64,000 bases of DNA from Oscillospiraceae bacterium (GTDB taxonomy: Bacteria > Bacillota > Clostridia > Oscillospirales > CAG-382): positions 202,787 through 266,786 of the forward strand of contig SVRI01000001.1 of the NCBI GenBank assembly GCA_015064895.1, in the 5' to 3' direction. The notes under the pieces are model-generated. The model saw only the letters and a list, made by a program, of their open reading frames with translations, searched no databases and was not told where the DNA came from. Of this stretch, positions 1 to 63,810 are shown in pieces. The number at the start of each line of letters is the position of its first letter. Position 1 is the first letter of the stretch. Made by a program: the position numbers and the translations under genes.

Positions 1-1125
1 GGAAGCTTCAACCTTTTCAGCCTTTACGATTTCATCGATAGCAAGCTGCTTCTTAACGTTGACAACAGCCTGATCCTTGTATCTTTCCTTGATATCGCTG
101 GCCTTCATGCCTGTGTACTTTGTGAGCATTTCAAGACTGAGACCCTGTGCGCGGAGGTTGTAGTCATATTCTCTTACAAGCATATCCTGTTCCTTGTCAA
201 CAAGAACATCGGGAATGTCAGCTTCAACATTTGCAATGAGTGCCTTTGTAAGTTCTTCTGCAAGTCTTACGTCAGCTTCTGCTGCATGTCTCTTTTCTAT
301 GTTTGCCTTAATGTCAGCTTTGTATTCAGCGAGTGTGTCAAATTCAGAAGCATCTTTTGCAAATTCGTCGTCAAGTGTGGGAAGTTCTTCAAATTCGATG
401 CCGTTAAGCTTGCACTTGAATGTTGCTTCCTTGCCGGCGAGTTCTTCTGCACCGTAGTCTTCGGGGAATGTAACAACAACGTCGAATTCAGAGCCTGTTT
501 CCTTGCCAACGATCTGGTCTTCGAAACCGGGAATGAATGCACCGCTGCCGAGCTTAAGCTTGTGACCCTCAGCCTTGCCGCCTTCAAATGCCTTATCGCC
601 GATGAAACCTTCATAGTTGATGTCAACTGTGTCGCCGTTCTGTGCTGCTCTGTCTGTAACTGCAATAGTTCTGGAGTATCTCTGTCTTACTCTTTCAAGT
701 TCAGCATCAACTTCAGCATCTGTTGTTTCAACAGTTACCTTTTGAACTTTAAGTCCCTTGTAAGCACTGAGCTTAACGTCGGGGTATCTTACGAATGTAA
801 CAACACAAACTACACCTTCTTCGTTTTCGAAGTCAACGTCTGTAACTTCGGGCATACCTGCAATCTTGAAGGGAGTTTCCTTAGCTGCAGAATCAATTTC
901 AGAGGGGAGAAGATCGTTGATAGCATCTTCATAGAAAACTGTCTTGCCGTAGAACTTTTCAACAAGACCACGTGTAGCCTTACCTTTTCTGAAGCCGGGA
1001 ATGGAAATGTGCTTTGCGTTCTTTCTGAAAACATTGTTTACTGCTGTTTCAAAAACATCCTTTGCAATAACGATGTTCATTTCCACCTTGTTTGTGTCAA
1101 TTTCCTTGTAGTTCTTTAAACTCAT
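1..1125 (-). CDS. tig: trigger factor, partial (C-terminus lies beyond window start)
   Basis: Hand translation of minus strand from ATG 1125: MSLKNYKEIDTNKVEMNIVIAKDVFETAVNNVFRKNAKHISIPGFRKGKATRGLVEKFYG..., later FKBP-type GAFIPGFEDQIVGK; frame open to position 1; GGAGG at 1133-1137. Absent from ORF track because no stop lies in the window. Confidence 0.93.
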   Translation of the reverse strand, partial: MSLKNYKEIDTNKVEMNIVIAKDVFETAVNNVFRKNAKHISIPGFRKGKATRGLVEKFYGKTVFYEDAINDLLPSEIDSAAKETPFKIAGMPEVTDVDFENEEGVVCVVTFVRYPDVKLSAYKGLKVQKVTVETTDAEVDAELERVRQRYSRTIAVTDRAAQNGDTVDINYEGFIGDKAFEGGKAEGHKLKLGSGAFIPGFEDQIVGKETGSEFDVVVTFPEDYGAEELAGKEATFKCKLNGIEFEELPTLDDEFAKDASEFDTLAEYKADIKANIEKRHAAEADVRLAEELTKALIANVEADIPDVLVDKEQDMLVREYDYNLRAQGLSLEMLTKYTGMKASDIKERYKDQAVVNVKKQLAIDEIVKAEKVEAS

Positions 1126-1189
1126 TTTTGTTCCTCCATGTTGTCCCTTATGGTTTTAGGGGACAAAACGTTAAAATTTATACTATTAT

Positions 1190-1217
1190 ATTCTATATGA
1201 TATTTATGAATTGTCAA
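1190..1217 (-). promoter_or_regulatory. candidate sigma-A promoter for tig
   Basis: Minus strand TTGACA (1217-1212), 16-nt spacer, TAGAAT (1195-1190). Confidence 0.4.
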
Positions 1218-1323
1218 GGCTTTTTTTGAAAAAAATTACCCCAAAGCCTTAAAAAGGGCGGTTTGGATGATTTTGCCTTACTTTTCCACTTTTTTTTAGC
1301 TATTTTTACAATATAATTTATGG

Positions 1324-3957: not shown

Positions 3958-4152
3958 CTATTCATTAAGATTCTTTTCTATGTCATTTTTCAGCTTTTTT
4001 GAATCGACATATCCTTCCGAAATACAGTATGCGATAACCGCCGATGCAACTGTTGTGGCACCTTCTGTGATATTGCCTTCAATTATGAGAAAAATGCCCG
4101 TAATAAGTCCTGCAAGCGCCGTTAAAAACTTTCTTGATGTAAATTTCTTCAT
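3958..4152 (-). CDS. small membrane protein, holin-like
   Basis: 64 aa, hydrophobic core LTALAGLITGIFLIIEG...VASAVIAYCI, charged C-terminal tail; sits immediately upstream of the signal-less peptidase; AGGAGA 6 nt before ATG 4152. Confidence 0.5.
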   Translation of the reverse strand: MKKFTSRKFLTALAGLITGIFLIIEGNITEGATTVASAVIAYCISEGYVDSKKLKNDIEKNLNE

Positions 4153-4154
4153 TG

Positions 4155-4469
4155 TCATTCTCCTTTTTGTTTGTGTGCTTTATTGTTTATATGCTTCTGC
4201 AGCTTTCCGTGTGCTTCGGCAACATTTCCGCCATAGCCTCTTTGTATAAGTGCGTCGAGTGATGCAAGAACAGCATAATTGACTACGCAAAGCTCTTCCT
4301 GAACACTTTTCAGATCCTCGTCATGGCATTTGTGCAGTTTTTCAATGTCAAGACTTTGCTTTTCCTGCTTCGACAACCATTTTATAAATGCGGCAATAAC
4401 ACCGAGGATTATGCCTGCCGCACCTATTATTTTCGACAAAGTAATAATTGTTTCGACTGTGATATTCAT
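4155..4469 (-). CDS. N-terminally membrane-anchored protein of unknown function (lysis-cassette partner)
   Basis: 104 aa; TM IIGAAGIILGVIAAFI followed by a helical/charged domain; AGGAGA RBS; its stop abuts the holin-like start. Confidence 0.55.
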   Translation of the reverse strand: MNITVETIITLSKIIGAAGIILGVIAAFIKWLSKQEKQSLDIEKLHKCHDEDLKSVQEELCVVNYAVLASLDALIQRGYGGNVAEAHGKLQKHINNKAHKQKGE

Positions 4470-4960: not shown

Positions 4961-4990
4961 GAAAAAAGGCAGGCGTTTATGCCTGCCTTT
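4961..4990 (-). terminator. terminator after the esterase gene
   Basis: Stem AAAGGCAGGC/GCCTGCCTTT flanked by an A-run and a T-run (bidirectional shape). Confidence 0.7.
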
Positions 4991-4997
4991 AAATGTC

Positions 4998-5861
4998 TTA
5001 CTGCTTGTATATAATGTAGTCTGCGTTTTCCGCCTTTTCTTCAATCCAGTCAGCCGACATATCAATCCAGCGTCTTGTACGAAGGGGATAGTTCATGGGA
5101 GTTGTAACCTTGTCGGCAGTGGAAATGCCGTGGGGACCGTTCTCGAAAATATGCATTTCAAAGGGAATGTTCTGCTTTCTGAGAGAGTCGGCAAAGAGCA
5201 TTGTGTTTTCGCAGGGAACAGCCTTGTCGCCGAAAGTAGACCAAATGAATGTCGTAGGCGTATGCTCATCAACCTGCTTTTCAAGGCTGAGATAATCGAG
5301 CCACTTTTCATCGGGATACTTATCGCCGAGCACTGCTCTGAAGGAGCCTACATGGGCATGACATCCGCTGGTTATTACGGGATAGCAGAGCACAAGTCCG
5401 TTGGGCTTTACACTTTCAACATCTCCGAAATATTCAGCGCTTTCCTGTCTGTGCCAGTGTGTGCCGCAGCATGCCGCAAGATGTCCGCCTGCCGAGAAGC
5501 CGCACAGATAAATTCTGTCGGGGTCGCCGAAGTACTTGTCGGCTGTTTCTCTTACGTATTTAACCGCAGAAAGTGCCTCAAGCAATGCCACGGGATAAAC
5601 CGAGGGCATACAGGAATAGTAGAGAATACCAACGTTAAAGCCTCTTGCAAGATATTTGAGTGCAATGGGGTCTGCTTCACGTGAGCTTGTCATTGCGTAT
5701 CCTCCGCCGGGAAGTACTATGACGGTAGGTCTTTTGGGTGTGTAAACGCTGACGTGTTCATGCTCGTTGGGTATGTACAGCTTGAAGATTGTTTCATGTC
5801 CCTCGTCGGGTGCGTCGATTTTTGTAAAGTCAAGTTTTATTGTTTCTTCAATGTAAAGCAT
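4998..5861 (-). CDS. alpha/beta hydrolase, esterase/lipase type
   Basis: 287 aa; PGGGY oxyanion-type motif and GFSAGGH nucleophile elbow; the GGAGG RBS lies inside the heptamer repeat. Confidence 0.75.
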   Translation of the reverse strand: MLYIEETIKLDFTKIDAPDEGHETIFKLYIPNEHEHVSVYTPKRPTVIVLPGGGYAMTSSREADPIALKYLARGFNVGILYYSCMPSVYPVALLEALSAVKYVRETADKYFGDPDRIYLCGFSAGGHLAACCGTHWHRQESAEYFGDVESVKPNGLVLCYPVITSGCHAHVGSFRAVLGDKYPDEKWLDYLSLEKQVDEHTPTTFIWSTFGDKAVPCENTMLFADSLRKQNIPFEMHIFENGPHGISTADKVTTPMNYPLRTRRWIDMSADWIEEKAENADYIIYKQ

Positions 5862-6027
5862 TGTCGTTCCTCCTAACTTCTAACTCCTAAGCGGCGAGCC
5901 GCCGCAGGCAATTCACGGCATATGTTTGCAACAAACAAACCTTTGGTGTCGCGCAAACAACCCCGTTTGGTCGGCATAAACCCGACCGACCAAACTCTCT
6001 CCTAACTCCTAACTTCTAACTCCTAAC
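5862..6027. repeat. family-1 mosaic element (H7-D-linker-B-H7), fills the smpB-esterase spacer
   Basis: CTAACTY heptamers at 5872-5890 and 6001-6027; hairpin GCGGCGAGCCGCCGC (5891-5905); AATTCACGG (5910-5918); hairpin GTTTGGTCGG..CCGACCAAAC (5965-5996). An inverted, near-identical copy lies at 56814-57042. Confidence 0.9.
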
Positions 6028-6498
6028 TTACCTGTTTCTCTCTCTCATGGCACGTTCTATATCGCGGGCTGCCTGTTTCTTTGCCTCGGTATCGCGTTTG
6101 TCGTAGTTCTTTTTACCCTTGCAAAGACCAAGTTCAACCTTAACCTTGGAGCCTGAAAAGTACATTTTGAGGGGAATAAGCGTGTAACCCTCTTTACCGC
6201 ATAGACCGAAAAGCTTCATTATCTCCTTTTTGTGAAGCAGAAGTTTTCTTTCACGTCTCGGGTCTTTGTTGAAAATGTTGCCCTTTTCGTAGGGGCTGAT
6301 ATGTACGCCGTACATAATCATCTCGCCCTTTTCAACATGGCAGTAGGAGTCCTTCATGTTGACAGCACCCTGACGTATGCTCTTTACTTCAGTACCCGAT
6401 AGGGCAATGCCCGCTTCATATGTGTCCTCGACGAAATAGTCGTGGTATGCCTTTTTGTTCTGGGCTGCAATTTTTATGTTTTCGTTCTTGTCTGCCAC
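6028..6498 (-). CDS. smpB: SsrA-binding protein
   Basis: [33 protein letters not shown]... typical SmpB; GTG start. Confidence 0.95.
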
Positions 6499-8341: not shown

Positions 8342-8369
8342 AGGGTACAATGAAAAAATATTTCGAAAA

Positions 8370-8636
8370 AAGACTTTGACGGGAAAGAGTAGTAAAGAAA
8401 ACTGCCCACAGAGAGGATGCCGCAGGTGAAAGGCACCGCAAGAGCTTTATGAAAGTCATCCCCGAGTTTCTGCCCGAAGGTAACAAAGATTATTGTGTAG
8501 GCGCAGACGGTTTGTTACCGTTAAAAACAGAACCTTTTTACAAGGTAAGCGGTCGGTTTTTCCGGCAATCAGAGTGGTACCGCAGAGTGTTTTTATGACC
8601 TTTGTCTCTATTTGTTTGAGACAAAGGCTTTTACTA
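8370..8636 (+). promoter_or_regulatory. T-box riboswitch leader, probable Val (GUC) specifier
   Basis: AGTA box (8386-8393), AGAGA box (8408-8416), GGTGAAAG distal loop (8425-8433), GAAA-GTC-A specifier context (8451-8458), T-box AATCAGAGTGGTACCGCAG (8567-8585), terminator CCTTTGTCTC/GAGACAAAGG plus CTTTT (8599-8635). Confidence 0.85.
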
Positions 8637-8654: not shown

Positions 8655-10316
8655 ATGCTTCTTACAGGCGCAGAAATAATCACAAGAGTTCTTATGGAAC
8701 AGGGTGTAGACAGAGTTTTCGGCTATCCGGGAGGTGCCGCACTCAATGTTTACGATGCACTATACAAGTGCAGTGATAAAATTACACATTATTTGACAGC
8801 CCACGAACAGGGTGCCTGCCATGCGGCAGACGGATACGCAAGAGCTACAGGCAAGACAGGTGTTGTTTTCGCAACAAGCGGTCCCGGCGCCACAAACCTT
8901 GTTACGGGTATTGCAACGGCATACATGGATTCAGTTCCTCTTGTTGCAATTACATGTAATGTTCCTACCGGCCTTATCGGTTGTGACTCCTTCCAGGAGG
9001 TCTATATTGCAGGTGTAACTCTTCCGATTACAAAGCACAATTTTACAGTACAGAGAGTTGAAGACCTTGCCGATATTTTAAGACAGGCATTCAGAATTGC
9101 TTCATCGGGAAGACCCGGCCCTGTACTTATTGACATTCCTAAGGATATTACAGCCAATAGTTGTGAATATGCAGAAGAACCGGCACAGCAGAAAATCATG
9201 CCTCCTACGGTACAGAATGACTGGTGGAGTATTGCCAACATCATAAACGAATCCGAATGTCCTCTCATTTATTTTGGAGGCGGTGTTCGTCTTTCGGGTG
9301 CAGGTGAAGAACTCAGAGAACTCATCTCCAAGGCTGACATTCCTGCGGCACACACACTTATGGCGGCGGGTATTCTCGGCTACGGTGAAAAGAATAATCT
9401 CGGTCTTATCGGTATGCATGGTTGCTTTACGGCAAACAAAGCGGCTTCCAAGTGCGATGTAATGCTTGCAATCGGAACACGTTTTTCCGACAGAGTTGCA
9501 CTTAACACCTCCAAATTCGGAGGCGGTGCAAAGATTATTCACATTGATATTGATGCTTCCGAAATGAACAAGAATGTAAACGTTTACACTCCCGTAATCG
9601 GTGACGTAAAAGACGTTCTCAAAAAGCTTCTTCCTCTTATAAAGAAGAAGACACATCCCGAATGGCAGGCAAGAATTGAGGAATGGAAGACACACGATTA
9701 CATCCCCGTAGACAGCGATGAGGTACTTCGTCCTCATCAGATTATGCATGCTATGTGCGACATTGCAGGCAAAGAAGCAATCTTTGCTACCGACGTCGGT
9801 CAGCATCAGATGTGGGCGGCTCAGTTCTTAAAGCACGTTGACGCAAACAGCTTCCTCACAAGCGGCGGTCTTGGTACCATGGGCTACGGCTACGGTGCGG
9901 CAATCGGTGCGTGTGTGGGTACTGACAAAAAGAGACCCGTAATTCACATCACAAGCGACGGTTCCTTCCACATGAACATGAACGAAGTCTGCACGGCAGT
10001 TTCCTACGAGCTTCCCATCGTTACCGTAATCTTCAATAATAAGGTTCTCGGTATGGTGCATCAGTGGCAGGGCGTATTCTACGGCAAGAGATACTCGGCA
10101 TCCGAGCCTCAGAGAAAGACAGACTATGTTGCAGTTGCCGAGGGCTTCGGTGCCTGCGGATTCAATGTTTCAAACATTGCAGAATTTGAAGAAGCTTTCA
10201 AAAAGGCTCTCACAATAAAAGGTCCCGTATGGATTGTATGCGATATCGACTCTGACGAGTGCGTATATCCCATGATTCCTGCAGGCGGCACATACAAAGA
10301 CACCATCATCGGCTAG
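8655..10316 (+). CDS. ilvB: acetolactate synthase, large (catalytic) subunit
   Basis: 553 aa; ThDP-enzyme motifs throughout (GYPGGA, GPGATN, GGLGTMGYG). Confidence 0.95.
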   Translation: MLLTGAEIITRVLMEQGVDRVFGYPGGAALNVYDALYKCSDKITHYLTAHEQGACHAADGYARATGKTGVVFATSGPGATNLVTGIATAYMDSVPLVAITCNVPTGLIGCDSFQEVYIAGVTLPITKHNFTVQRVEDLADILRQAFRIASSGRPGPVLIDIPKDITANSCEYAEEPAQQKIMPPTVQNDWWSIANIINESECPLIYFGGGVRLSGAGEELRELISKADIPAAHTLMAAGILGYGEKNNLGLIGMHGCFTANKAASKCDVMLAIGTRFSDRVALNTSKFGGGAKIIHIDIDASEMNKNVNVYTPVIGDVKDVLKKLLPLIKKKTHPEWQARIEEWKTHDYIPVDSDEVLRPHQIMHAMCDIAGKEAIFATDVGQHQMWAAQFLKHVDANSFLTSGGLGTMGYGYGAAIGACVGTDKKRPVIHITSDGSFHMNMNEVCTAVSYELPIVTVIFNNKVLGMVHQWQGVFYGKRYSASEPQRKTDYVAVAEGFGACGFNVSNIAEFEEAFKKALTIKGPVWIVCDIDSDECVYPMIPAGGTYKDTIIG

Positions 10317-10611
10317 CGGGGAGCCCCCGCGGGGAGCCCCCGCAGGCGTATCACGGGCAAGTTTCGCAATAAGCAAGCCCTCGTGGTCGCTTAAGTAACC
10401 CCGTTTGGTCGGCATAAATCCGACCGACCAAACTCAAACAGAATTTTAATCAGACAGTTCAAAAGTGGAATAGGGCTCGGCTATATAATAAAGAATATTT
10501 GCCCTCGGCAAATCCCCCCTAACACCTAACTCCTAACTTCTAACTTCTAACTTCTAACTTCTAACTTCTAACTCCTAACTCCTAACTCTTTTTCCCGGAG
10601 GTGAAAACACA
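10317..10611. repeat. family-1 mosaic element (D x2 - linker - B - spacer - H7 x10) between ilvB and ilvN
   Basis: GCGGGGAGCCCCCGC duplicated directly after the TAG stop; ATCACGG; hairpin GTTTGGTCGG..CCGACCAAAC (10403-10433); ten heptamers CTAACAC, CTAACTC, CTAACTT x5, CTAACTC x3 (10519-10588). Confidence 0.9.
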
Positions 10612-12168: not shown

Positions 12169-12380
12169 TCAGCGTTGCTTGAATTGAAATTATGCCTTCC
12201 CCTATCTCAGGGGAAGGTGTCAAAATCAAAGATTTTGACGGATGAGGTCTTGACAGACCAGGTGAAAGCAACCATCCATCTACCTCCTCAGTCACCTTGC
12301 GGTGACAGCTCCCCCTATGTATAGGGGAAGCCTGTATTGAATCTATTCAAAAATTTACAAGGGGGACTGTATGTTCCCCA
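12169..12380. repeat. family-2 element (Y then X) between ilvC and ilvD
   Basis: Y: GCCTTCCCC..GGGGAAGG (12194-12217), GTCAAAATC..GATTTTGAC (12219-12239), GGATGAGGT (12240-12248). X: ACCTCCTCAGTCACC-TTGC-GGTGACAGCTCCCCC-TATGTATA-GGGGAAGCC (12282-12332). Extra hairpin GGGGGA..TTCCCC (12361-12379). Confidence 0.9.
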
Positions 12381-21162: not shown

Positions 21163-21360
21163 GATGAACTAATTTAAGCCTTCCTCCCGGAGGAAGCCTT
21201 AGAGTAACACAATCTAACTAAGCCTTCCCCGTTGGGGAAGGTGGGTTGCGTCAGCAACTCGGATGAGGTTTGACGGATGAGGTTGAAATAATACACGGAT
21301 TGACCTCCTCAGTCACCTTTCGGTGACAGCTCCCCCTTCCCGAAGGGGAAGCCAAAAGCA
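21163..21360. repeat. family-2 element (hairpin, Y, then X) after the clp gene
   Basis: CTTCC..GGAAG (21180-21196); Y GCCTTCCCC-GTT-GGGGAAGGTGGGTTGCGTCAGCAACTCGGATGAGGT (21222-21269), with GGATGAGGT duplicated; X ACCTCCTCAGTCACC-TTTC-GGTGACAGCTCCCCC-TTCCCGAA-GGGGAAGCC (21303-21353). Confidence 0.9.
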
Positions 21361-21410: not shown

Positions 21411-22259
21411 ATGGCAAACAACATGACACTTCTCGTAATGGCAGCAGGTATGGGCAGCCGTTTCGGCGGTCTCAAGCAGATCGAACCCGTAGGTCCCGAC
21501 GGACAGGTTATTCTCGAATACTCTGTTTACGACGCACTTGAAGCAGGCTTCGACAAGGCTGTATTTATCATTAAGAAGGAAATCGAAACAGATTTCAGAA
21601 ACATCATAGGCAAGCGTATCGAAAAGATGATTGATGTAGAATATGCATTCCAGGAAATCGACAAGATTCCTGCACCCTTTACAGTTCCCGAAGGAAGAAT
21701 TAAGCCCTGGGGTACAGGCCACGCAGTTCTCTGTGCAAGAGAATTTGTAAACTCACCTTTTGCAGTTATCAACGCCGATGACTACTACGGCAAGGGCGGT
21801 TACAAGGTAGTTAAGGACCACTTCGATAACAGCAACGAATTCTGTATCGTAGGTTTCAAGCTCGCAAATACAGTTACAGAAAACGGCACAGTATCCAGAG
21901 GTATCTGCGAAATCGAAAACGGCTACCTCAAGAGTGTTGTTGAAACACACGAAATTCCTGCAAAGAACGACTATCCCGAAGACACAGTATGCTCCATGAA
22001 CATGTGGGGCTGCACACCCAAGCTCTTTGACGAGCTTGAAGTGGGCTTTGTTGACTTCCTCAAGGAAAGAGGAACAGAAATGAAGAGCGAATACCTCCTT
22101 CCCACAATCATTGACGGCATGATCAAGAACAAGGGCGAAAAGGTTAAGGCTCTTACTACAGATGCTAAGTGGTACGGTGTTACATACAAGGAAGACAAGC
22201 AGTCTGTTGTTGATGCGCTTGCGGCTTACACTGCACAGGGTCTCTACAAGAAGTTCTAG
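21411..22259 (+). CDS. sugar-phosphate nucleotidyltransferase family protein
   Basis: LLVMAAGMGSRFGGLKQIEPVG signature of the NTP_transferase fold. Confidence 0.75.
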   Translation: MANNMTLLVMAAGMGSRFGGLKQIEPVGPDGQVILEYSVYDALEAGFDKAVFIIKKEIETDFRNIIGKRIEKMIDVEYAFQEIDKIPAPFTVPEGRIKPWGTGHAVLCAREFVNSPFAVINADDYYGKGGYKVVKDHFDNSNEFCIVGFKLANTVTENGTVSRGICEIENGYLKSVVETHEIPAKNDYPEDTVCSMNMWGCTPKLFDELEVGFVDFLKERGTEMKSEYLLPTIIDGMIKNKGEKVKALTTDAKWYGVTYKEDKQSVVDALAAYTAQGLYKKF

Positions 22260-22455
22260 CGGGTAGCACCCGCAGGCAAATTCGCGGGTGATTTCTCGAC
22301 ACGCAGACTATCGGTGTCGCACAACGAACCTTTTGTTGCCGCCTATAAGGCACGCGGCAACAAAATTGCAACACCAATGAAGCATTATAAAACACTTAGG
22401 TTTCAATGCTCGATTGACCAATCACGACCACCGGGGCACGGCGGTCGTGATTTAC
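22260..22455. repeat. family-1 element (D-linker-B plus extra hairpin) starting at the stop codon
   Basis: TAG-CGGGTAGCACCCG-CAGGCAAATTCGCGGG; TCGGTGTCGCACAACGAACC; hairpin TTTTGTTGCCGC..GCGGCAACAAAA (22331-22364); hairpin ATCACGACCACC..GCGGTCGTGAT (22421-22451). Colinear with 63617-63810. Confidence 0.85.
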
Positions 22456-30032: not shown

Positions 30033-30595
30033 AAAAAACGAGTTTGCACCGTTGCGTTTATGCGGTGCAAACGGAACACTAATCGAGAAACAAAGATTTA
30101 AAAACAAGGAAAAGCAGAAAAGGTGACAAATGCGAGTTCTTTTCCTACTTTTCTGCGAAAGGCGGCGGGTCGCCGCTGACAATTCACGGGGTGTTAAAAG
30201 ATAGAATTACCGCCACGGATGTCGCATAACAAATATGTAAAAAAACTTCTTGAGTTTGCACCGTTGCGTTTATGCGGTGCAAACGGAGTATCAATCGAGA
30301 AACAAAGATTTAAAAACAAGGAAAAGCAGAAAAGGTGACAAATGCGAGTTCTTTTGCCTACTTTTCTGCGAAAGGCGGCGGGTCGCCGCTGACAATTCAC
30401 GGGGTGTTAAAAGATAGAATTACCGCCACGGATGTCGCATAACAAATATGTAAAAAACTTCTTGAGTTTGCACCGTTGCGTTTATGCGGTGCAAACGGAG
30501 TATCAATCGAGAAACAAAGATTTAAAAACAAGGAAAAGCAGAAAAGGTGACAAGTGCGAGTTCTTTTGCCTACTTTTCTGCGAAAGAAAAGTAGG
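30033..30595 (+). repeat. tandem array, 212-bp unit x about 2.6 (family-1 modules B-C-D-linker)
   Basis: GAGTTTGCACCG starts at 30040, 30252 and 30464 (period 212). Units differ by a few substitutions and 1-nt indels. The last unit ends in a hairpin abutting the hisH ATG. Confidence 0.95.
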
Positions 30596-31228
30596 ATGAA
30601 AACACTTATTATTGACTACGGGATGGGAAATCTCCATTCTGTTAAAAATGCATTTGACTTTATCGGCGAGGAGGCGTACATTTCCTCTGACATAAATGAA
30701 ATGGAAAAGGCGGATGCACTGCTTCTTCCCGGTGTCGGTGCATTTCCCGATGCTTCGGATATGCTCTGTAAAAGCGGCATTGCTGACAAGATAATCGAAC
30801 TTTGCGGAAAAGGGGACAAGCCCCTCCTTGGCATTTGTCTCGGTATGCAGTTGTTACTTGACGAAAGTGACGAGGTTCGTCTTTCAAAGGGACTCGGACT
30901 TGTACACGGAAGATGCGAAAAGATAACCGACACAGGTCTTAAAATTCCACACATGGGCTGGAACGACCTTGTACTTGATGACAAAAACTGCCCTCTCTTT
31001 ACCGACACAAAGGACGGCGACTACGTTTATTTTGTACATTCCTTCAAGGCGGTACTCGAGGACAGAAAAAATCTTCTTGCACACACATTTTACGGCGAGG
31101 AAATCCCTGCTGTAATAGGCAACGGAAAGAATGTTTTTGGTTGTCAGTTCCATCCTGAAAAGAGTGAGAAGGTCGGACTTTCCATGTTAAAAGCATTTTG
31201 CGAATTTGCGAAACGGAAGTGTTTGTGA
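30596..31228 (+). CDS. hisH: imidazole glycerol phosphate synthase, glutamine amidotransferase subunit
   Basis: MKTLIIDYGMGNLHSV..., GICLGMQ, HSF, QFHPEKS. The ORF-track N-terminal extension translates the repeat. Confidence 0.93.
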   Translation: MKTLIIDYGMGNLHSVKNAFDFIGEEAYISSDINEMEKADALLLPGVGAFPDASDMLCKSGIADKIIELCGKGDKPLLGICLGMQLLLDESDEVRLSKGLGLVHGRCEKITDTGLKIPHMGWNDLVLDDKNCPLFTDTKDGDYVYFVHSFKAVLEDRKNLLAHTFYGEEIPAVIGNGKNVFGCQFHPEKSEKVGLSMLKAFCEFAKRKCL

Positions 31229-31240
31229 ATAAAGGACAAA

Positions 31241-31361
31241 ACCTCCTCAGTCAGCTTTCGCTGACAGCTCCCCCTGAAAGCAGGGGAAGCCTTAGTAACA
31301 ATGACTAACAAAAGCCTTCCCTTTTGGGGAAGGTGGGTTGCGTTAGCAACTCGGATGAGGT
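31241..31361 (+). repeat. family-2 element (X then Y), 121 bp, between hisH and hisA
   Basis: ACCTCCTCAGTCAGC-TTTC-GCTGACAGCTCCCCC-TGAAAGCA-GGGGAAGCC-TTAGTAACAATGACTAACAAAA-GCCTTCCC..GGGGAAGGTGGGTTGC-GTTA-GCAACTCGGATGAGGT; twin of 33619-33743. Confidence 0.95.
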
Positions 31362-31411
31362 CTGACGTATGATGAAAAAATCACTGTTGAAACAGAAAAA
31401 AGGTGAAAAAT

Positions 31412-32128: not shown

Positions 32129-32529
32129 AGTGCAGAAAGTTATGTAAGGAGAATCTTGCACTCTTCGAAGTACGTTTTCCGTACTTTTGTCCCGAAACAA
32201 AAGTACCAAAAATTCTCCACTCAACAAGAGGAGATGGGCGGCAAGTTGCCGCTGACAAACCGTCATTTTGACGGCATACCGAAAACCGTCAAAATGACAA
32301 ATACTGCTGTCGGGCTATCCCGACTCTGCGCTGACTTCCCCTCTTTTGCCGTGGAGGCTTAACTCCCCTCACTGGGTGTAGTGCAAGTTTGAAGCGATGA
32401 GTTTGGTCGGTTGCGTTTATGCCGACCAAACGGAATAAAAATCGAGTGATATAATATAGATAAACAAGGAGAGCGAGAAAGGTGACAAATGCGAGTTCTT
32501 TTGCTTACTTTTCTCCGAAAGAAAAGTAA
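32129..32529. repeat. 400-bp composite of family-1 modules (C-like hairpin, D, extra hairpins, B, C) between hisA and hisF
   Basis: GTACTTTTG-TCCCGAAA-CAAAAGTAC (32181-32206); GGCGGCAAGTTGCCGC (32237-32252); GTCATTTTGACGG..CCGTCAAAATGAC (32261-32298); GTCGGG..CCCGAC; B GAGTTTGGTCGG..CCGACCAAACGG (32399-32432); C ending CTTACTTTTC-TCCGAAA-GAAAAGTAAG (32504-32530). Confidence 0.9.
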
Positions 32530-33618: not shown

Positions 33619-33743
33619 ACCTCCTCAGTCAGCTTTCGCTGACAGCTCCCCCTTTGTGAAAGGGGAAGCCTTAGTAACAATGACTAACAAAAGCCTTCCC
33701 ATTTTAAGGGGAAGGTGGGTTGCGTCAGCAACTCGGATGAGGT
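33619..33743 (+). repeat. family-2 element (X then Y), 125 bp, between hisI and hisE
   Basis: Same stems and linker as 31241-31361; begins 1 nt after the hisI TAG. Confidence 0.95.
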
Positions 33744-33764
33744 AAAAAAGAAAGGTTGAAAGAT

Positions 33765-37439: not shown

Positions 37440-37652
37440 TACCTTTATAAAAAAATATGGAATTTTCTTTATACGATGCCAAAAAATATTTATGACAAAA
37501 TCTGTCTCATTTTCTTTTATTCCTGTCGGGAATGTTTTATGAACATTTGATATAATGATGAACTCCGGTGAAATCTGCCGAAAAACGGCAGGTGAAATCA
37601 CTACGTGGTGAAATATTGCTTCGCAATATGAAATATCCGCTTAAAGCGAAAG

Positions 37653-56816: not shown

Positions 56817-57042
56817 GAGTTAGGAGTTAGAAGTTAGGAGTTATGAGTTAAATGCAAAATGCGGAATGCAAAATGCAAAATGCGGAATGAGTTTGACCGC
56901 CCTCCTTATGGCGGGCAAACGGGGTTGTTTGTGCGACACCAATGGTTTGTTAAGCACAAGGATATAACGTGAATTGTCAGCGCGGACTCCGCGCCGTGAA
57001 TTGCCGGCGGCGGCTCGCCGCTTAGGAGTTAGGAGTTAGGAA
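56814..57042. repeat. family-1 mosaic element (H7, second H7, B, linker, D x2, H7) between recF and remB
   Basis: TAGGAGT-type heptamers x5 (56814-56848; the first TAG is the recF stop); AATGCAA/AATGCGG x5.5 (56851-56889); B GAGTTTGACCGCC..GGCGGGCAAACGG (56889-56923); CGTGAATTG plus GCGCGGACTCCGCGC; CGTGAATTG plus GCGGCGGCTCGCCGC (57007-57021); TTAGGAG x3 (57022-57042). Confidence 0.93.
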
Positions 57043-57052
57043 CCTGAGATTT

Positions 57053-57328
57053 ATGAAAACAAATCCTTATATCAATGTCGGCGGTACGCAGATACTTGCA
57101 AAGAGCGACATACTCGGAATATTTGACCTTGACACGGCAAGTACAAAAACAGATACAAAGCGTTTTCTTTCCAAATGCGAAAGCGAAGGACATCTTATTA
57201 TGGTGGGCAACGATATCCCCAAGTCCTTTGTGCTGACCGCAAGCGGAAGGAAAGAGCACGTTTATATGACTCAGCTTTCGGTGTCCTCCATTGAAGGCAG
57301 ATGGAAACGCAAGAATGCACATCTGTAG
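57053..57328 (+). CDS. remB: DUF370 / RemB-like protein
   Basis: 91 aa; YINVGGTQILAKSDILGIFDLD...; conserved position between recF and gyrB, as for B. subtilis yaaB/remB. Confidence 0.8.
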   Translation: MKTNPYINVGGTQILAKSDILGIFDLDTASTKTDTKRFLSKCESEGHLIMVGNDIPKSFVLTASGRKEHVYMTQLSVSSIEGRWKRKNAHL

Positions 57329-57431
57329 GGAAAGCCCTGCGGCAAATTCACGGTATATTTTCGCGAAAACATAGGCGTTTAGTGTCGCTTGACGAACACC
57401 GTTTAACCGCCATAAATGCAAGCGGTTAAAC
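57325..57431. repeat. family-1 element (D-linker-B) starting on the remB stop codon
   Basis: GTAGGG-AAAG-CCCTGC includes TAG 57326-57328; GGCAAATTCACGG; GTTTAGTGTCGC; B hairpin GTTTAACCGC-CATAAATGCA-GCGGTTAAAC (57401-57431). Confidence 0.85.
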
Positions 57432-57456
57432 TAAATACTGAAAAAATTTTCTTTAG

Positions 57457-60559: not shown

Positions 60560-60801
60560 AAGGGAAGGTTTGCCGAAAGAAGCAAGTCTTCCTTTTTGCG
60601 TCGGGAAAGCCCGACAGCAAATTCACGGGCGCGACGCGTTAAGAAAACAACCCTGTGTGGTTGTTTTTAGCCAAAGCGGTGAGCAAGCTTGCTTGCGAGC
60701 AGGGCAAAATATTGTGATTGGCAAATTTTGATTGTCGCATAACCAAATATGACAGTAGGGACAGGCGTCCCCGACTGTCCGTTTTGAGTTTGGAGTTAAT
60801 A
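60560..60801. repeat. family-1 composite between rpmF and the DUF512 gene
   Basis: GGGAAG..CTTCCTTTTT hairpin; D GTCGGG-AAAG-CCCGAC (60600-60615) plus AGCAAATTCACGGG; AAAACAACC..GGTTGTTTT; TGATTGTCGCATAACCAAATATG linker; GACAGTAGGG..CCCCGACTGTC; ends GAGTTTGGAG, which supplies the RBS. Confidence 0.8.
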
Positions 60802-62115
60802 ATGGTAAAAATATCGGGAATTGAAAGAAAATCCCTTGCCGAAAAGGCGGGGATACTTTCGGGAGACGAGCTTGTCTCCATAAATGACAATGAAATAAAT
60901 GATGTTCTCGACTACAGATTTTACCTGACCGAGAAGAAACTCAGGCTGCTTATTCACAGAGACGGCGACGAGCTTGTTTTTGACATAAAGAAGCCCCAGT
61001 ATGACGACATAGGTCTCGAATTTGAGACTTATCTCATGGACGAAAAGCACACCTGCACAAACAAGTGCGTGTTCTGCTTCATCGACCAGAACCCCGAAGG
61101 CATGCGAAAGATGTGCTACTTCAAGGACGACGACTCGAGAATGTCCTTCTTCTACGGAAACTACGTTACCCTTACCAATATGAAAGAGTCTGAGGTCGAA
61201 AGGCTTATCAAAATGAGAATTTCGCCCATCAACATTTCGGTGCATACAACAAATCCCGACCTCAGGTGCAAGATGTTAAACAACCGTTTTGCAGGGGATG
61301 TACTGCGTTACATGGACAAATTCCGCGAGGGCGGCATTGCCATGAACTGTCAGATTGTACTGTGCAAGGGTCTCAATGACGGAAAAGAGCTTGAAAGAAC
61401 ACTTGACGATTTGGTACAGCTTTTCCCGAGTGTTGAAAGCATTGCCGTAGTACCCTCGGGACTTACAAAGTACCGCGAGGGACTTTATCCCTTGGAGGAT
61501 TTTTCTAAGGAGGATGCAAGAGAGGTTATTCATCTTGTTAACTCCAAAAGACGAGAGTTTGAAGAAAAGACGGGTCACACCATTGTGCAATGCTCTGACG
61601 AGTGGTACTTAAAGGCGGGAATTGAGCTTCCCGACGAGGACTACTACGACGGATATCCCCAGCTTGACAACGGAGTGGGACTTATAAAAAGCATGGAAAA
61701 TGAGATTCTCATGCGAATCGGGGAGCTCAAGGAAGAAGGCTTTAAATTAGAAAAGCCGAGATGCCTTTCATCCGTGACAGGCACGGCAGCATACCCTTTT
61801 ATTTCTGCCATGGCAAAAATGCTGATGGAGGAATTTGAGGGGCTTACCTTTAACGTATACGAATGTAAAAACGAATTTTTCGGTCACTCGGTAAATGTTG
61901 CAGGGCTTCTTGTGGGTGAGGACCTGTACAACCGTCTGAAGAATGAGAACCTTGGCGAAGAACTGCTTATTCCCCACGTAATGCTTCGTCACGAGGGGGA
62001 TTTATTCCTCGACAACACGGACGTTGACGAGCTTGCCGAAAGGCTGAATATAAGCATATATCCCATTCCTGCATCCGACGGATTCTGTTTTGTGGATGCG
62101 GTGCTTGGTATATAG
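60802..62115 (+). CDS. DUF512-type radical SAM protein with N-terminal PDZ-like domain
   Basis: CTNKCVFCF (CxxxCxxC) cluster motif; PDZ-like N-terminus; ATG 60802. The upstream ORF-track extension translates the repeat. Confidence 0.78.
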   Translation: MVKISGIERKSLAEKAGILSGDELVSINDNEINDVLDYRFYLTEKKLRLLIHRDGDELVFDIKKPQYDDIGLEFETYLMDEKHTCTNKCVFCFIDQNPEGMRKMCYFKDDDSRMSFFYGNYVTLTNMKESEVERLIKMRISPINISVHTTNPDLRCKMLNNRFAGDVLRYMDKFREGGIAMNCQIVLCKGLNDGKELERTLDDLVQLFPSVESIAVVPSGLTKYREGLYPLEDFSKEDAREVIHLVNSKRREFEEKTGHTIVQCSDEWYLKAGIELPDEDYYDGYPQLDNGVGLIKSMENEILMRIGELKEEGFKLEKPRCLSSVTGTAAYPFISAMAKMLMEEFEGLTFNVYECKNEFFGHSVNVAGLLVGEDLYNRLKNENLGEELLIPHVMLRHEGDLFLDNTDVDELAERLNISIYPIPASDGFCFVDAVLGI

Positions 62116-62272
62116 GAATTAGGAATTAGGAATTAGGAATGAGTTTGGTCGGTGGCGTTTATGCCGACCAAACGGTATAATAATCGAGAAATAAAAACGG
62201 AAGAAAAATAGGAAAATTAGGTGCTCGGTGCGAGTTCTTTTTGCCTACTTTTTCTCCGAAAGAAAAAGTAGG
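62113..62272 (+). repeat. family-1 element (H7 x4 - B - C) spanning exactly from the DUF512 stop to the der RBS
   Basis: TAGGAAT x4 (62113-62140; the first TAG is the stop codon); B GAGTTTGGTCGG..CCGACCAAACGG (62141-62175); AATCGAG plus purine tract; hairpin CCTACTTTTTC-TCCGAAA-GAAAAAGTAGG (62244-62272). Confidence 0.93.
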
Positions 62273-62280
62273 TGGAAAAT

Positions 62281-63624
62281 ATGTCCAAACCCATAGTTGC
62301 CATTGTAGGTAGACCTAATGTAGGTAAAAGTACATTTTTTAATAAAATAGTCGGCAAGCGTATTGCCATTGTCGAGGACATTCCCGGTGTTACACGTGAC
62401 AGACTTTACTTTGAAGTCGAATGGTGCGGCAGAAAGATGATGTTCATTGACACGGGCGGTATTGAGCCTGACACAAACGACATGATTATGACGCACATCA
62501 AGACTCAGGCTGAGATTGCCATTGAATCTGCCGATGCCATTGTTTTTATGACAGACATCCGCGCAGGCGTTACTGCCGACGACAGAGAAATCGCGTCAAT
62601 GCTCAGAAAGAGCCAAAAGCCTGTTGTTCTCTGCGTAAACAAGGTGGACTCTGTGGGTGCGCTTCCCATGGAATTCTACGAATTCTATGAACTTGGACTC
62701 GGCGATCCCTTTGCCGTATCCTCGGTACATGGCAGCGGTACAGGCGATATCTTAGAGCAGCTGTGCGAGTATCTTCCCGAAGAAATCGAGGAGGAAGAAG
62801 ACGAAGACAGAATTAAGGTTGCGGTTATAGGACGTCCAAATGCCGGTAAATCCAGCCTTGTCAACCATATTCTCGGCAAGGAACGCATGATTGTATCAAA
62901 TGTGGCAGGTACAACCCGTGACGCCATTGACTCGGATGTTGAAAACGACCACGGAAAGTACGTCTTTATTGATACGGCAGGCATAAGAAAGACGGGCAAA
63001 ATCGGTGACAGCATAGAAAAGTACAGCATCCTTCGTGCCGAAATGGCGGTGGACAGAGCCGATGTATGTTTAATTGTTGTTGATGCAACAGAGGGCATTA
63101 CCGCCCAGGACGAAAGGGTTGCGGGCATTGCCCACGAAAGCGGCAAGGCGTGCATTATCATCATAAACAAGTGGGACCTTGTTGAAAAGGAAACGGGTAC
63201 ATTAGAGAACTACCGCAAGGAAGTTTACGAAAAGCTGTCATATATGACATACGCTCCCGTACTCTTTATCTCGGCAAAGACAGGTCAGAGGGTTGACAAG
63301 ATTTACGAGCTTATCAACTATGTTCACGACCAGAGCTGTATGAGAATTTCTACGGGTATGCTCAACGACGTTCTTAACGAAGCTACAAACCGTGTGCCTC
63401 CGCCAACAGACAAGGGCAGACGCTTAAAGATTTACTACATGACACAGACGGGCATCAAGGCGCCTACCTTTGTCATGTTCGTAAACGACGCAGAGCTTTT
63501 CCACTTCTCCTATCAGAGATATATCGAAAACAAGCTTCGCGAGGTCTTCGGCTTTGAAGGCACGCCCATAAAGCTTGTTATACGTCAGAAGGGCGAAGAC
63601 GAGCTCGAAAACCCCGGCAGGTAG
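62281..63624 (+). CDS. der: ribosome-associated GTPase Der (EngA)
   Basis: MSKPIVAIVGRPNVGKSTFFN..., second G domain VAVIGRPNAGKSSLVN, KH-like C-terminus. Confidence 0.96.
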   Translation: MSKPIVAIVGRPNVGKSTFFNKIVGKRIAIVEDIPGVTRDRLYFEVEWCGRKMMFIDTGGIEPDTNDMIMTHIKTQAEIAIESADAIVFMTDIRAGVTADDREIASMLRKSQKPVVLCVNKVDSVGALPMEFYEFYELGLGDPFAVSSVHGSGTGDILEQLCEYLPEEIEEEEDEDRIKVAVIGRPNAGKSSLVNHILGKERMIVSNVAGTTRDAIDSDVENDHGKYVFIDTAGIRKTGKIGDSIEKYSILRAEMAVDRADVCLIVVDATEGITAQDERVAGIAHESGKACIIIINKWDLVEKETGTLENYRKEVYEKLSYMTYAPVLFISAKTGQRVDKIYELINYVHDQSCMRISTGMLNDVLNEATNRVPPPTDKGRRLKIYYMTQTGIKAPTFVMFVNDAELFHFSYQRYIENKLREVFGFEGTPIKLVIRQKGEDELENPGR

Positions 63625-63810
63625 CACCTGCGGGCATATTCGCGGGCTATGTTTGATTTAAAACATGCCTTTGGTGTCACGTAATCAACCTTTTGCGGCT
63701 ATCAGACAACGACAGCCGCAAAATCAAGACACCGACAGAATGCAATCCAATAAATCGTGGCGGATAGCACGGTTATCCATTCCCGACCACCAAACACCGG
63801 CGGTCGGGAA
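63617..63810. repeat. family-1 element (D-linker-B plus extra hairpins) overlapping the der stop codon
   Basis: GCAGGT-AGC-ACCTGC (63617-63631) contains TAG 63622-63624; GGGCATATTCGCGGG; CTTTGGTGTCAC; TTTTGCGGCT..AGCCGCAAAA (63691-63723); TTCCCGACCACC..GGCGGTCGGGAA (63780-63810). Confidence 0.85.

What the first reader, a model, noticed from the sequence alone, without database searches (positions are those of the whole stretch)
5862..6027. Archetype of a modular, structured intergenic repeat (family 1) that fills a spacer and donates an RBS
The whole smpB-esterase spacer is one element: heptamer run, hairpin GCGGCGAGCCGCCGC, AATTCACGG, linker ..TTTGGTGTCGCGCAAACAA.., hairpin GTTTGGTCGG..CCGACCAAAC, heptamer run.
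- An inverted copy at 56814-57042 shares long identical stretches (GTGAATTGCC.GCGGCGGCTCGCCGCTTAGGAGTTAG; CAAACGGGGTTGTTTG.GCGACACCAA.GGTTTGTT).
- Related module sets occur at 10317, 22260, 30033, 32129, 40521, 57325, 60560, 62113 and 63617.
- The B hairpin stem covaries: TTTGGTCGG/CCGACCAAA, TTTGCACCG/CGGTGCAAA, TTTGACCGCC/GGCGGGCAAA, GTTTAACCGC/GCGGTTAAAC, TTTTGCGGCT/AGCCGCAAAA.
- The loop 3' end (T)TTATG and the flanks GAGTTTG/CAAACGG are kept.
- D stems also vary freely, while the adjacent GCAAATTCACGG is kept in about 9 copies.
- The esterase SD (GGAGG, 5873-5869) is part of the heptamer run.
Compensatory stem changes together with conserved single-stranded motifs point to selection on an RNA or ssDNA structure, as with REP/BIME, BOX or Correia elements. 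I do not recognise this particular module set. A hairpin next to a fixed motif is also what HUH (RAYT / IS200-IS605-like) enzymes recognise.
Basis: partly seen in the sequence, partly recalled or inferred. Interest (0 to 1): 0.72.

Follow-up and report, generated by a model that had tools for sequence, protein, structure and literature searches.

The report
Two-hairpin intergenic repeat in gut Clostridia
The smpB-esterase spacer holds one copy of a roughly 107-base, two-hairpin repeat that litters the intergenic DNA of a clade of uncultured gut Clostridia and usually sits against a gene's stop codon; it resembles the REP/BIME and BOX repeats of other bacteria but matches no described family.

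Summary
Window 5891-5997 is a 107-nt unit made of three parts:
- a GC-rich D hairpin with the box GGCAATTCACGG;
- a 57-nt linker with the box TTTGGTGTCGC;
- a 35-nt B hairpin.

It is flanked on both sides by a (GTTAGGA)n heptamer run.

The spacer is composite, not one element. Two near-identical strains carry the same spacer as a pure heptamer run without the core. The esterase ribosome-binding site comes from that run.

A covariance model finds 6 full copies in the window and 92 in about 740 kb from at least 10 related metagenome-assembled genomes (MAGs). All 17 stem pairs covary, and 96.9% of pair cells are paired. Nothing matches in Rfam.

B is shared by at least 4 subfamilies. T1, the subfamily in this finding, is strongly polar. 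In same-direction gene contexts, 35 of 43 copies read D-to-B on the mRNA. The D hairpin abuts or contains the upstream stop codon in about 21 copies.

Copies are replaced, duplicated or lost between strains.

Best reading: a new REP/BIME- or BOX-like mosaic repeat that turns over at the DNA level and acts as a stem-loop at cistron ends. It fails the membership tests for REP, MITE, attC and terminators. No transposase was found.

The parts
5862..5890 (-). Proximal heptamer run, TTAGGA GTTAGAA GTTAGGA on the gene strand, followed by GGAACGACA and the ATG. It supplies the esterase Shine-Dalgarno sequence GGAGG (5873-5869).
   Evidence: The same end of the spacer is present in the core-less alleles L004 and L005.
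5891..5905 (-). D hairpin GCGGCG-GCT-CGCCGC, the variable GC-rich terminal hairpin of T1.
   Evidence: Helix 2 of the model: 6 of 6 pairs show changes on both sides.
5906..5918 (-). Conserved unpaired box, CCGTGAATTGCCT on the gene strand (AGGCAATTCACGG on +).
   Evidence: Alignments; 17 matches against 7.2 expected.
5919..5962 (-). Linker of conserved length with the box GCGACACCAAA (TTTGGTGTCGC on +, 5942-5952). The rest of the linker is poorly conserved.
   Evidence: Median linker identity between copies is 52% at a constant length of 57 +/- 2 nt.
5963..5997 (-). B hairpin, GAGTTTG-GTCGG-TCGGGTTTATG-CCGAC-CAAACGG, the module shared by all subfamilies.
5998..6027 (-). Distal heptamer run, (GTTAGGA/GTTAGAA) x4, directly after the smpB TAA. 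It puts TAG in all three frames.
   Evidence: Copy number varies between strains: 5 and 9 units in L005 and L004.
10316..10435 (-). T1 copy with a duplicated D hairpin. The ilvB stop TAG overlaps the first D hairpin.
   Evidence: Different T1 variants occupy this site in L085 and L099.
22259..22367 (-). Divergent T1 copy. The upstream gene's TAG shares its G with the D hairpin.
   Evidence: 57 bits. The orthologue in L027 ends with TAA and has no T1 there.
56889..57021 (+). T1 copy in the opposite absolute orientation with an extra tandem D module (56995-57021). It is flanked by TTAGGAG runs (56813-56850, 57022-57041) and an AAATGCR run (56850-56889).
57325..57433 (-). T1 copy between the 91-aa gene and gyrB.
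   Evidence: 89 bits.
63617..63725 (-). T1 copy whose D hairpin loop holds the upstream gene's TAG.
30040..30596 (+). 212-bp tandem array (2.6 copies) of B, T3 body and a B-less T1. The last unit ends in the AT-rich hairpin just before the hisH ATG.
32399..32529 (+). T3 relative (B, body, AT-rich hairpin) ending at the hisF start codon.
62113..62271 (+). (TAGGAAT)x4 run followed by a T3 relative, ending at the start codon of gene 62272.
60600..60659 (-). Solitary D module: GTCGGGAAAGCCCGAC followed by GCAAATTCACGG.
10518..10588 (+). Ten-unit CCTAACT heptamer run (antisense of TTAGGAG) upstream of ilvN. Copy number is polymorphic between strains.

Best explanation
Window 5891-5997 is one copy of a lineage-specific interspersed repeat of about 107 nt, called T1 here. 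It consists of a 35-nt B hairpin, a 57-nt linker with two conserved boxes, and a short GC-rich D hairpin. It lies inside a variable-number (GTTAGGA)n run.

T1 is one of at least four subfamilies that share the B hairpin.

I read it as a non-autonomous, REP/BIME- or BOX-like mosaic repeat that works at two levels.

DNA level: whole units and single modules are gained, lost, duplicated in tandem and swapped between copies. Complementarity of the stems is restored each time. The agent is unknown. It could be a hairpin-recognising enzyme, or template switching and gene conversion between copies.

RNA level: the units lie inside operons without promoter or terminator signals, so they are co-transcribed. 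Their variable hairpin end is anchored at a gene boundary. The D hairpin sits at or on the upstream stop codon in the common orientation, and just before the next ribosome-binding site in the rare one. They therefore most likely persist as cistron-end stem-loops. Such stem-loops could protect the upstream message from 3' exonucleases or modulate termination-proximal ribosomes, as E. coli REPs within 15 nt of a stop codon do.

The heptamer run, not T1, provides stop codons in all three frames and the esterase Shine-Dalgarno sequence.

Shown: anatomy, covariation, distribution, polarity, stop-codon abutment and strain polymorphism. Inferred: mobility mechanism, transcription and RNA function.
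For: Anatomy and copy counts.

Hairpins:
- In an unbiased test, 94 of 106 pattern hits have 5 of 5 Watson-Crick pairs at unconstrained stem positions, with at least 10 stem variants.
- 96.9% of pair cells are paired, 17 of 17 pairs change on both sides, and 0 of 500 shuffles reach this.

Distribution:
- More than 86 stretches in at least 14 species-level MAGs of uncultured gut Clostridia.
- No Rfam hit.

DNA-level turnover:
- L004 and L005, which are 98.8-98.9% identical to the window, lack the core. L003, only 92% identical, has it.
- The ilvB/ilvN site carries different T1 variants or arrangements in the window, L085, L099, L075 and L098.
- The T1 in L099 is 99% identical to a T1 at another locus, L037.
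- Tandem arrays occur in L055, L088, L081 and at window 30040.
- At 63617 the D hairpin shows three compensatory pair changes in an otherwise ~97% identical spacer.

Polarity:
- 35 versus 8 copies in same-direction contexts.
- A gene reads into the D end in 57 cases and away from it in 20.
- The stop codon lies within -4 to +8 nt of the D end in 21 cases, with a peak at -1/0. There is no such peak at the B end.
- T2 behaves like T1, and T3 is the mirror image at start codons.

Other:
- No promoter-like site lies in the spacer. The one terminator-like match (6064-6076, + strand) lies inside smpB, outside the spacer.
- Real terminators in the window carry T-runs; D hairpins do not.
- Precedent for hairpins next to stop codons: PMC12306157.
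Against: - No enzyme was found. A crude HUH/Y1 motif scan of 2,044 reading frames was negative, and no autonomous element with B and D ends was seen.
- There are no terminal inverted repeats, no detectable target duplication and no conserved flanking target.
- Linkers of different copies are only about 52% identical. That fits old copies under constraint better than a recently bursting parasite.
- The core-less smpB alleles can be explained by ordinary slippage between the flanking direct heptamers, without any transposition.
- B is equally conserved in both orientations relative to transcription (T1/T2 versus T3). This argues that B itself is read as DNA, not RNA.
- No expression data are available.
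- Gene calls for the polarity statistics are simple long reading frames.
Confidence: 0.55

Rival explanations
1. T1 is a family of cis-acting RNA elements in 3' UTRs or between cistrons, kept by purifying selection at each site. It is not a mobile element. Its spread reflects ancient duplication plus gene conversion.
For: Conserved length and boxes despite about 52% linker identity. Strong covariation. Orientation bias and stop-codon abutment. Subfamily-specific placement at stop or start codons. The 63617 spacer is more conserved than the flanking coding DNA.
Against: Presence/absence and replacement of copies between near-identical strains. 99% identical copies at different loci. Tandem arrays. 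B is conserved in both transcriptional orientations. About a fifth of copies are in the other orientation. There is no Rfam relative.
Confidence: 0.2
2. T1 is the non-autonomous derivative of an IS200/IS605-type element or a REP-like substrate of a Y1 HUH enzyme (RAYT/TnpA). The enzyme binds the hairpins on single-stranded DNA and uses the adjacent boxes as guide or cleavage sequences.
For: Each hairpin lies next to a fixed unpaired motif. There is no target duplication and there are no terminal inverted repeats. The core-less smpB allele is consistent with precise excision. Five of six window copies share one absolute orientation, including the one among minus-strand genes, as expected for insertion biased by replication strand.
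Against: No GT[AG]G or CGTC tag at either hairpin foot (definitions in PMC6006769 and PMC3733652). No conserved tetra- or pentanucleotide flank. No Y1-like reading frame in about 740 kb (crude). The two hairpins are unrelated and are not arranged as inverted REP pairs.
Confidence: 0.15
3. The units are small RNA genes or intrinsic terminators.
For: Stable predicted folds (z = -2.5 to -3.9).
Against: No promoter-like site, and no terminator-like site inside the spacer. D hairpins lack T-runs, whereas the genuine terminators at 4968, 49218 and 53188 have them. Units lie inside the ilv and his operons.
Confidence: 0.03
4. The units are integron attC-like recombination sites that bound gene cassettes.
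For: The sequence is variable but the structure is conserved. The position directly after the stop codon and the fixed polarity resemble attC. The heptamer GTTAGGA resembles GTTRRRY at 6 of 7 positions.
Against: T1 has two separate hairpins instead of one long R''-L''/L'-R' stem. The flanking genes are syntenic housekeeping operons (ilv, his, smpB, recF-gyrB). No integrase was seen.
Confidence: 0.03

Closest known systems
REP / BIME elements of Enterobacteria and Pseudomonas (RAYT-associated)
   Same: Short extragenic hairpins in high copy. Mosaic combinations with fixed linkers. Location after coding regions between same-direction or convergent genes. Co-transcription. Some lie within 15 nt of stop codons (PMC3733652, PMC12306157).
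   Different: No GT[AG]G or CGTC tag. The unit is two unrelated hairpins in a fixed polarity, not inverted REP pairs. The linker is 57 nt with its own boxes. No RAYT was found. The host is Clostridia, where REP families have not been catalogued.
BOX elements of Streptococcus pneumoniae (boxA-boxB(n)-boxC)
   Same: Modular repeat of a Firmicute. Variable module number. Strongly folding. Co-transcribed with flanking genes. No transposase of its own. Slow turnover between strains (PMC3049150).
   Different: No shared sequence modules by inspection (not tested by alignment). BOX shows no reported anchoring to stop codons and no association with heptamer runs.
Intergenic heptamer direct repeats (TAACTGA arrays of Beggiatoaceae, Cyanobacteria and Bacteroidetes; long simple sequence repeats)
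   Same: Tandem heptamers in intergenic DNA, often just upstream of start codons, variable in number (PMC4679880). This applies to the flanks of the finding, not to the core.
   Different: The units here are TTAGGAG, AATGCGG and TAGGAAT. Here they also serve as the bed, and sometimes as inverted ends, of hairpin elements.
IS200/IS605-derived palindrome-associated elements (PATEs)
   Same: Hairpins at both ends, no terminal inverted repeats, no target duplication, and possibly precise loss.
   Different: No conserved target at the flank and no cognate TnpA was seen.

Membership tests
REP/BIME (RAYT-associated) | Short, high-copy, extragenic palindromic hairpin | tested here: met
   B hairpin 35 nt and D hairpin 15-16 nt. 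There are 12 B hairpins in 64 kb, all intergenic.
REP/BIME (RAYT-associated) | Unpaired GT[AG]G (or CGTC) tag at the foot of the hairpin | tested here: not met
   The feet are GA/GTTTG..CAAAC/GG for B and ..TTGCC(N)/GCGG for D. No tag appears in 42- and 92-copy alignments. Definitions are from PMC6006769 and PMC3733652.
REP/BIME (RAYT-associated) | Units arranged as inverted pairs of the same REP (REPIN/BIME) | tested here: not met
   Each unit holds two unrelated hairpins in one polarity. Clusters are head-to-tail tandems.
REP/BIME (RAYT-associated) | Cognate Y1 transposase gene flanked by the repeats | tested here: inconclusive
   A regex scan for HUH/Y motifs in 2,044 reading frames of about 740 kb found none. 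Whole genomes were not available.
MITE | Terminal inverted repeats and a target-site duplication | tested here: not met
   The ends (B versus D) are unrelated. Flank profiles show no duplication. The smpB filled and empty alleles show only the heptamer phase kept.
IS200/IS605-derived PATE | Conserved tetra- or pentanucleotide target abutting one end | tested here: not met
   There is only a T (70%) before B and a C or T after D.
IS200/IS605-derived PATE | TnpA(Y1) in the same genome acting on the end hairpins | not testable with these tools
   This needs complete genomes or biochemistry.
Any Rfam family | Covariance-model match at the gathering score | tested here: not met
   The window and 18 loci give only T-box, tRNA and Gut-1 hits elsewhere. 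An E-value scan of 5800-6100 gave chance-level hits only.
Intrinsic terminator | GC hairpin followed by a T-run | tested here: not met
   No terminator-like site lies inside the spacer. D hairpins are followed by AGGCAA.. or TTAGGAG, while true terminators in the window have T-runs.
Integron attC | Single imperfect R''-L''/L'-R' hairpin with RYYYAAC/GTTRRRY cores, in cassette arrays next to intI | tested here: not met
   T1 has two separate hairpins. In B the order of the core-like motifs is reversed (GTTTGRY..RYCAAAC). The flanking genes are syntenic housekeeping genes.
Pneumococcal BOX | boxA, boxB and boxC sequence modules | not tested
   No BOX sequences were compared. Only the modular architecture is analogous (PMC3049150).
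Heptamer long simple sequence repeats | Tandem 7-nt units, intergenic, variable in number | tested here: met
   This applies to the flanks only. The smpB site has 5, 9 or 4+3 units in different strains, and there are 60 period-7 arrays in 674 kb.

The most novel reading that the evidence does not exclude
The B-hairpin subfamilies form a genome-wide system of cassettes anchored to gene boundaries. T1 and T2 modules attach to stop codons and T3 modules attach to start codons. The shared B hairpin is the DNA-level joint at which a lineage-specific enzyme, acting on single-stranded DNA or hairpins, cuts and rejoins. Untranslated-region modules, and sometimes whole genes or operon segments, would then be exchanged. 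This would explain three observations: the in-situ swapping of modules, different T1 variants at one site, and rearrangement breakpoints in or next to B.
Probability: 0.12. Interest if true: 0.85.

Novelty: new variant of a known kind. Interest (0 to 1): 0.55.

Why it matters
Small structured repeats are well studied in Proteobacteria and pneumococci but hardly at all in the uncultured Clostridia that dominate herbivore guts.

This family is unusually regular. Its length is fixed, it has two covarying hairpins, and one end is pinned to the stop or start codon. Subfamilies share a hinge hairpin. Yet it changes between strains.

That gives three uses:
- a natural system for asking how hairpins at cistron ends shape operon expression in Firmicutes;
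- a source of strain-level markers and of assembly breaks in MAGs;
- a test of whether REP-like repeats can spread without a RAYT.

The heptamer runs that host the core also offer a tunable array of stop codons and ribosome-binding sites.

Tried and rejected
- Rfam at gathering and E-value thresholds found nothing.
- RNAalifold on both strands found no conserved pairing in the linker, only the B and D hairpins.
- I tried to infer the functional strand from G-T versus A-C mismatches. The apparent 32:6 excess in D was an alignment artefact, caused by GTCGGG-N4-CCCGAC hairpins being forced into a 3-nt loop register, so I dropped it. In B the counts are too small.
- A search for an autonomous element as B...D pairs 0.2-3.5 kb apart found only ordinary genes flanked by repeats.
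- An HUH/Y1 motif scan was negative but crude.
- GC skew follows gene orientation, so the replication direction could not be separated from transcription.
- My first heptamer-run finder was too strict, and I replaced it with TRF.
- Look-ups of recF and the NTP-transferase returned only alleles identical to the window.
- A TA-target (IS630-like) model for the stop-codon abutment was rejected by the flank profile.
- A look-up of L32 failed because of a coordinate error and was not repeated.

Full report
**What is there**

On the strand of the genes (minus), the 166-nt spacer between smpB (6028-6498) and an esterase (4998-5861) reads as follows:
- TAA, the smpB stop;
- four GTTAGGA/GTTAGAA units, then GA;
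- the hairpin GAGTTTG-GTCGG-TCGGGTTTATG-CCGAC-CAAACGG (B);
- GGTTGTTTGCGCGACACCAAAGG..., the linker;
- CCGTGAATTGCCT, a conserved box;
- the hairpin GCGGCG-GCT-CGCCGC (D);
- TTAGGA GTTAGAA GTTAGGA GGAACGACA, then the esterase ATG.

The GGAGG of the esterase ribosome-binding site is formed by the last heptamer.

No promoter-like site lies in the spacer, and the one terminator-like match (6064-6076) lies inside smpB, outside it. The two genes are therefore probably co-transcribed across the spacer (inference).

**More than chance**

- The B pattern occurs 7 times in the window against 0 expected.
- The D-side box occurs 17 times with up to 2 mismatches against 7.2 expected.
- A covariance model built from 42 copies and run without filters finds six full units in the window: 5891, 10329, 22259, 56889, 57325 and 63617. 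Site 40521 is not a hit.

**The spacer is composite**

Exact-protein look-up of SmpB returned contigs from other samples.
- L004 and L005 are 98.8-98.9% identical to the window. They have the same genes, but their spacers consist only of 9 or 5 heptamers followed by the same GGAACGACAATG.
- L003 is only 92% identical, yet it carries the core at the same place.

So the 107-nt core is a discrete unit lying in a variable-number heptamer run. The ribosome-binding site belongs to the run.

Because the more distant relative has the core, its absence in L004 and L005 is most simply a loss. Slippage between the flanking direct heptamers or a precise excision would both give this result, and no target duplication can be read.

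(GTTAGGA)n puts TAG in all three frames and repeats AGGAG. This follows directly from the sequence.

**Family and distribution**

These came from at least 14 metagenome-assembled genomes (MAGs), all uncultured Clostridia or Eubacteriales from ruminant and other animal guts. Some are labelled Oscillospiraceae or Feifaniaceae. The window is 90-93% identical to two of them.

B is followed by at least four alternative bodies:
- T1, the subfamily of this finding;
- T2 and T3, which end in an AT-rich hairpin;
- T4.

T1 has a tightly fixed length of 107-110 nt. The model finds 92 T1 copies with E below 1e-12 in the window plus 86 loci. No Rfam family matches in the window or in 130 kb of loci. I found no paper describing such repeats in this clade.

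**Structure**

The scan pattern left five stem positions free on each arm. In 94 of 106 hits these are perfectly complementary, in at least 10 different variants.

On the 92-copy alignment:
- 96.9% of pair cells are standard pairs;
- all 17 pairs show changes on both sides;
- no shuffle and no slid register comes close.

That alignment was fitted to the structure, so the pattern-based count is the cleaner evidence for B.

The linker has no conserved pairing on either strand. It keeps its length and two boxes, while the rest is only about 52% identical between copies.

An apparent excess of G-T over A-C mismatches in D proved to be a register artefact. The strand on which the structure matters cannot be read from the sequences.

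**Polarity and gene boundaries**

- Where both neighbours run the same way, 35 copies are antisense to my B-to-D convention and 8 are sense.
- A gene reads into the D end in 57 cases and away from it in 20.
- In 21 of those 57 cases the stop codon lies within -4 to +8 nt of the hairpin, with a sharp peak at -1/0. The stop codons are TAG in 12, TAA in 6 and TGA in 3. There is no such peak at the B end.
- In some copies the stop codon is in the D loop: 63617 in the window, and ilvD in L048.
- T2 behaves like T1.
- T3 is the mirror image. It is sense-oriented in 8 of 9 same-direction gene contexts (8 versus 1), and its terminal hairpin and Shine-Dalgarno sequence end at the next start codon, as at hisH, hisF and gene 62272.

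So the variable hairpin end is always next to a gene and B always faces the interior of the spacer. The archetype copy belongs to the minority orientation. There its D end lies 29 nt before the esterase start, directly ahead of the heptamer that carries the ribosome-binding site.

**Turnover**

The ilvB-ilvN spacer differs in every strain or species examined:
- window: two D hairpins, a linker, B, 83 nt of other sequence, then 10 heptamers;
- L099: a B-less T1, a full T1 with another linker, then two short heptamer runs;
- L085: different D and B variants;
- L075: only a D-like hairpin;
- L098: a rearrangement whose breakpoint lies in the B loop.

Further evidence of turnover:
- The full T1 in L099 is 99% identical to a T1 at a different locus of a sister genome.
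- At 63617 the D hairpin differs from its orthologue by three compensatory pair changes inside an otherwise ~97% identical spacer.
- Tandem arrays are common.
- Spacers at 62115 and 60520 carry quite different elements in the sister species.

**Interpretation**

The data fit a REP/BIME- or BOX-like mosaic repeat:
- many copies;
- hairpins kept by paired changes;
- mixing of modules;
- co-transcription;
- slow but real turnover.

It fails the defining tests of REPs (no GT[AG]G or CGTC tag, no inverted pairs), MITEs, attC sites and terminators. The HUH idea remains untested, because whole genomes were out of reach.

The gene-boundary anchoring and the diverged but length-constant linkers suggest that copies persist because they act as stem-loops at cistron ends. 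The closest precedent is ribosome stalling by REPs within 15 nt of a stop codon, cited in PMC12306157. This is an inference. Deletional compaction against the stop codon could also produce the peak.

**Verdict**

This is a new variant of a known kind of element, of moderate interest.

Noticed in passing
window 12263-12332, 21220-21353, 31222-31381, 33619-33763: A second, unrelated structured repeat family: ACCTCCTCAGTCAC..GTGACAGCTCCCCC..GGGGAAGCC..AAGCCTTCCCC..GGGGAAGGTGGGTTGCGTCAGCAACTCGGATGAGGT. It lies in spacers of the ilv, clp and his regions.
   Followed up: no
window 30040-30596, 32399-32529, 62141-62271: T3 subfamily: B hairpin, body, then an AT-rich hairpin (CCTACTTTTCT..AGAAAAGTAGG) that ends 0-10 nt before the start codons of hisH, hisF and gene 62272. 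It appears to carry the Shine-Dalgarno sequence in or just after its 3' arm. It is sense-oriented in 8 of 9 same-direction gene contexts (8 versus 1).
   Followed up: partly
L018 697-884 and 2230-2431; L027 1557-1735: Cores of about 130 nt flanked by inverted heptamer runs, (AATGCGG)n ... (CCGCATT)n. They occupy spacers that hold T3 or D modules in the window, and look like another small element whose terminal repeats are heptamer arrays.
   Followed up: no
window 1-1316 / 14082 versus L048; window 14207 / 3265 versus L033; L098 930-1186: Rearrangement of a ~12-kb segment between the window lineage and sister species. T1 copies sit at the junctions, and in L098 the breakpoint is inside the B hairpin loop.
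   Followed up: partly
window 63617-63631 versus L018 ~3790: The D hairpin GCAGGTAGCACCTGC holds the gene's TAG in its loop. The orthologue has GCGGTGAGCCACCGC with an in-frame TGA. That is three compensatory pair changes in a spacer that is otherwise about 97% identical. In L048 the ilvD stop also lies in a D hairpin, and the last codon differs from the window.
   Followed up: partly
window 10518-10588 and strains L099, L100, L101: The heptamer run before ilvN varies from about 3 to 10 units between strains that share an identical IlvN protein. Some strains add a TTTTGCA run.
   Followed up: partly
window 8367-8612; 37566-37639: A T-box leader lies upstream of ilvB, and there is a Gut-1 RNA match (65.8 bits). 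Both are unrelated to the repeat.
   Followed up: no
L102 9700-10090 (IMGVR_UViG_3300031555_010637): A predicted viral contig carries one T1 and two T2-like units in tandem. They lie next to a small membrane reading frame similar to window 3958-4158, so B-family repeats also occur in a putative prophage of this clade.
   Followed up: no
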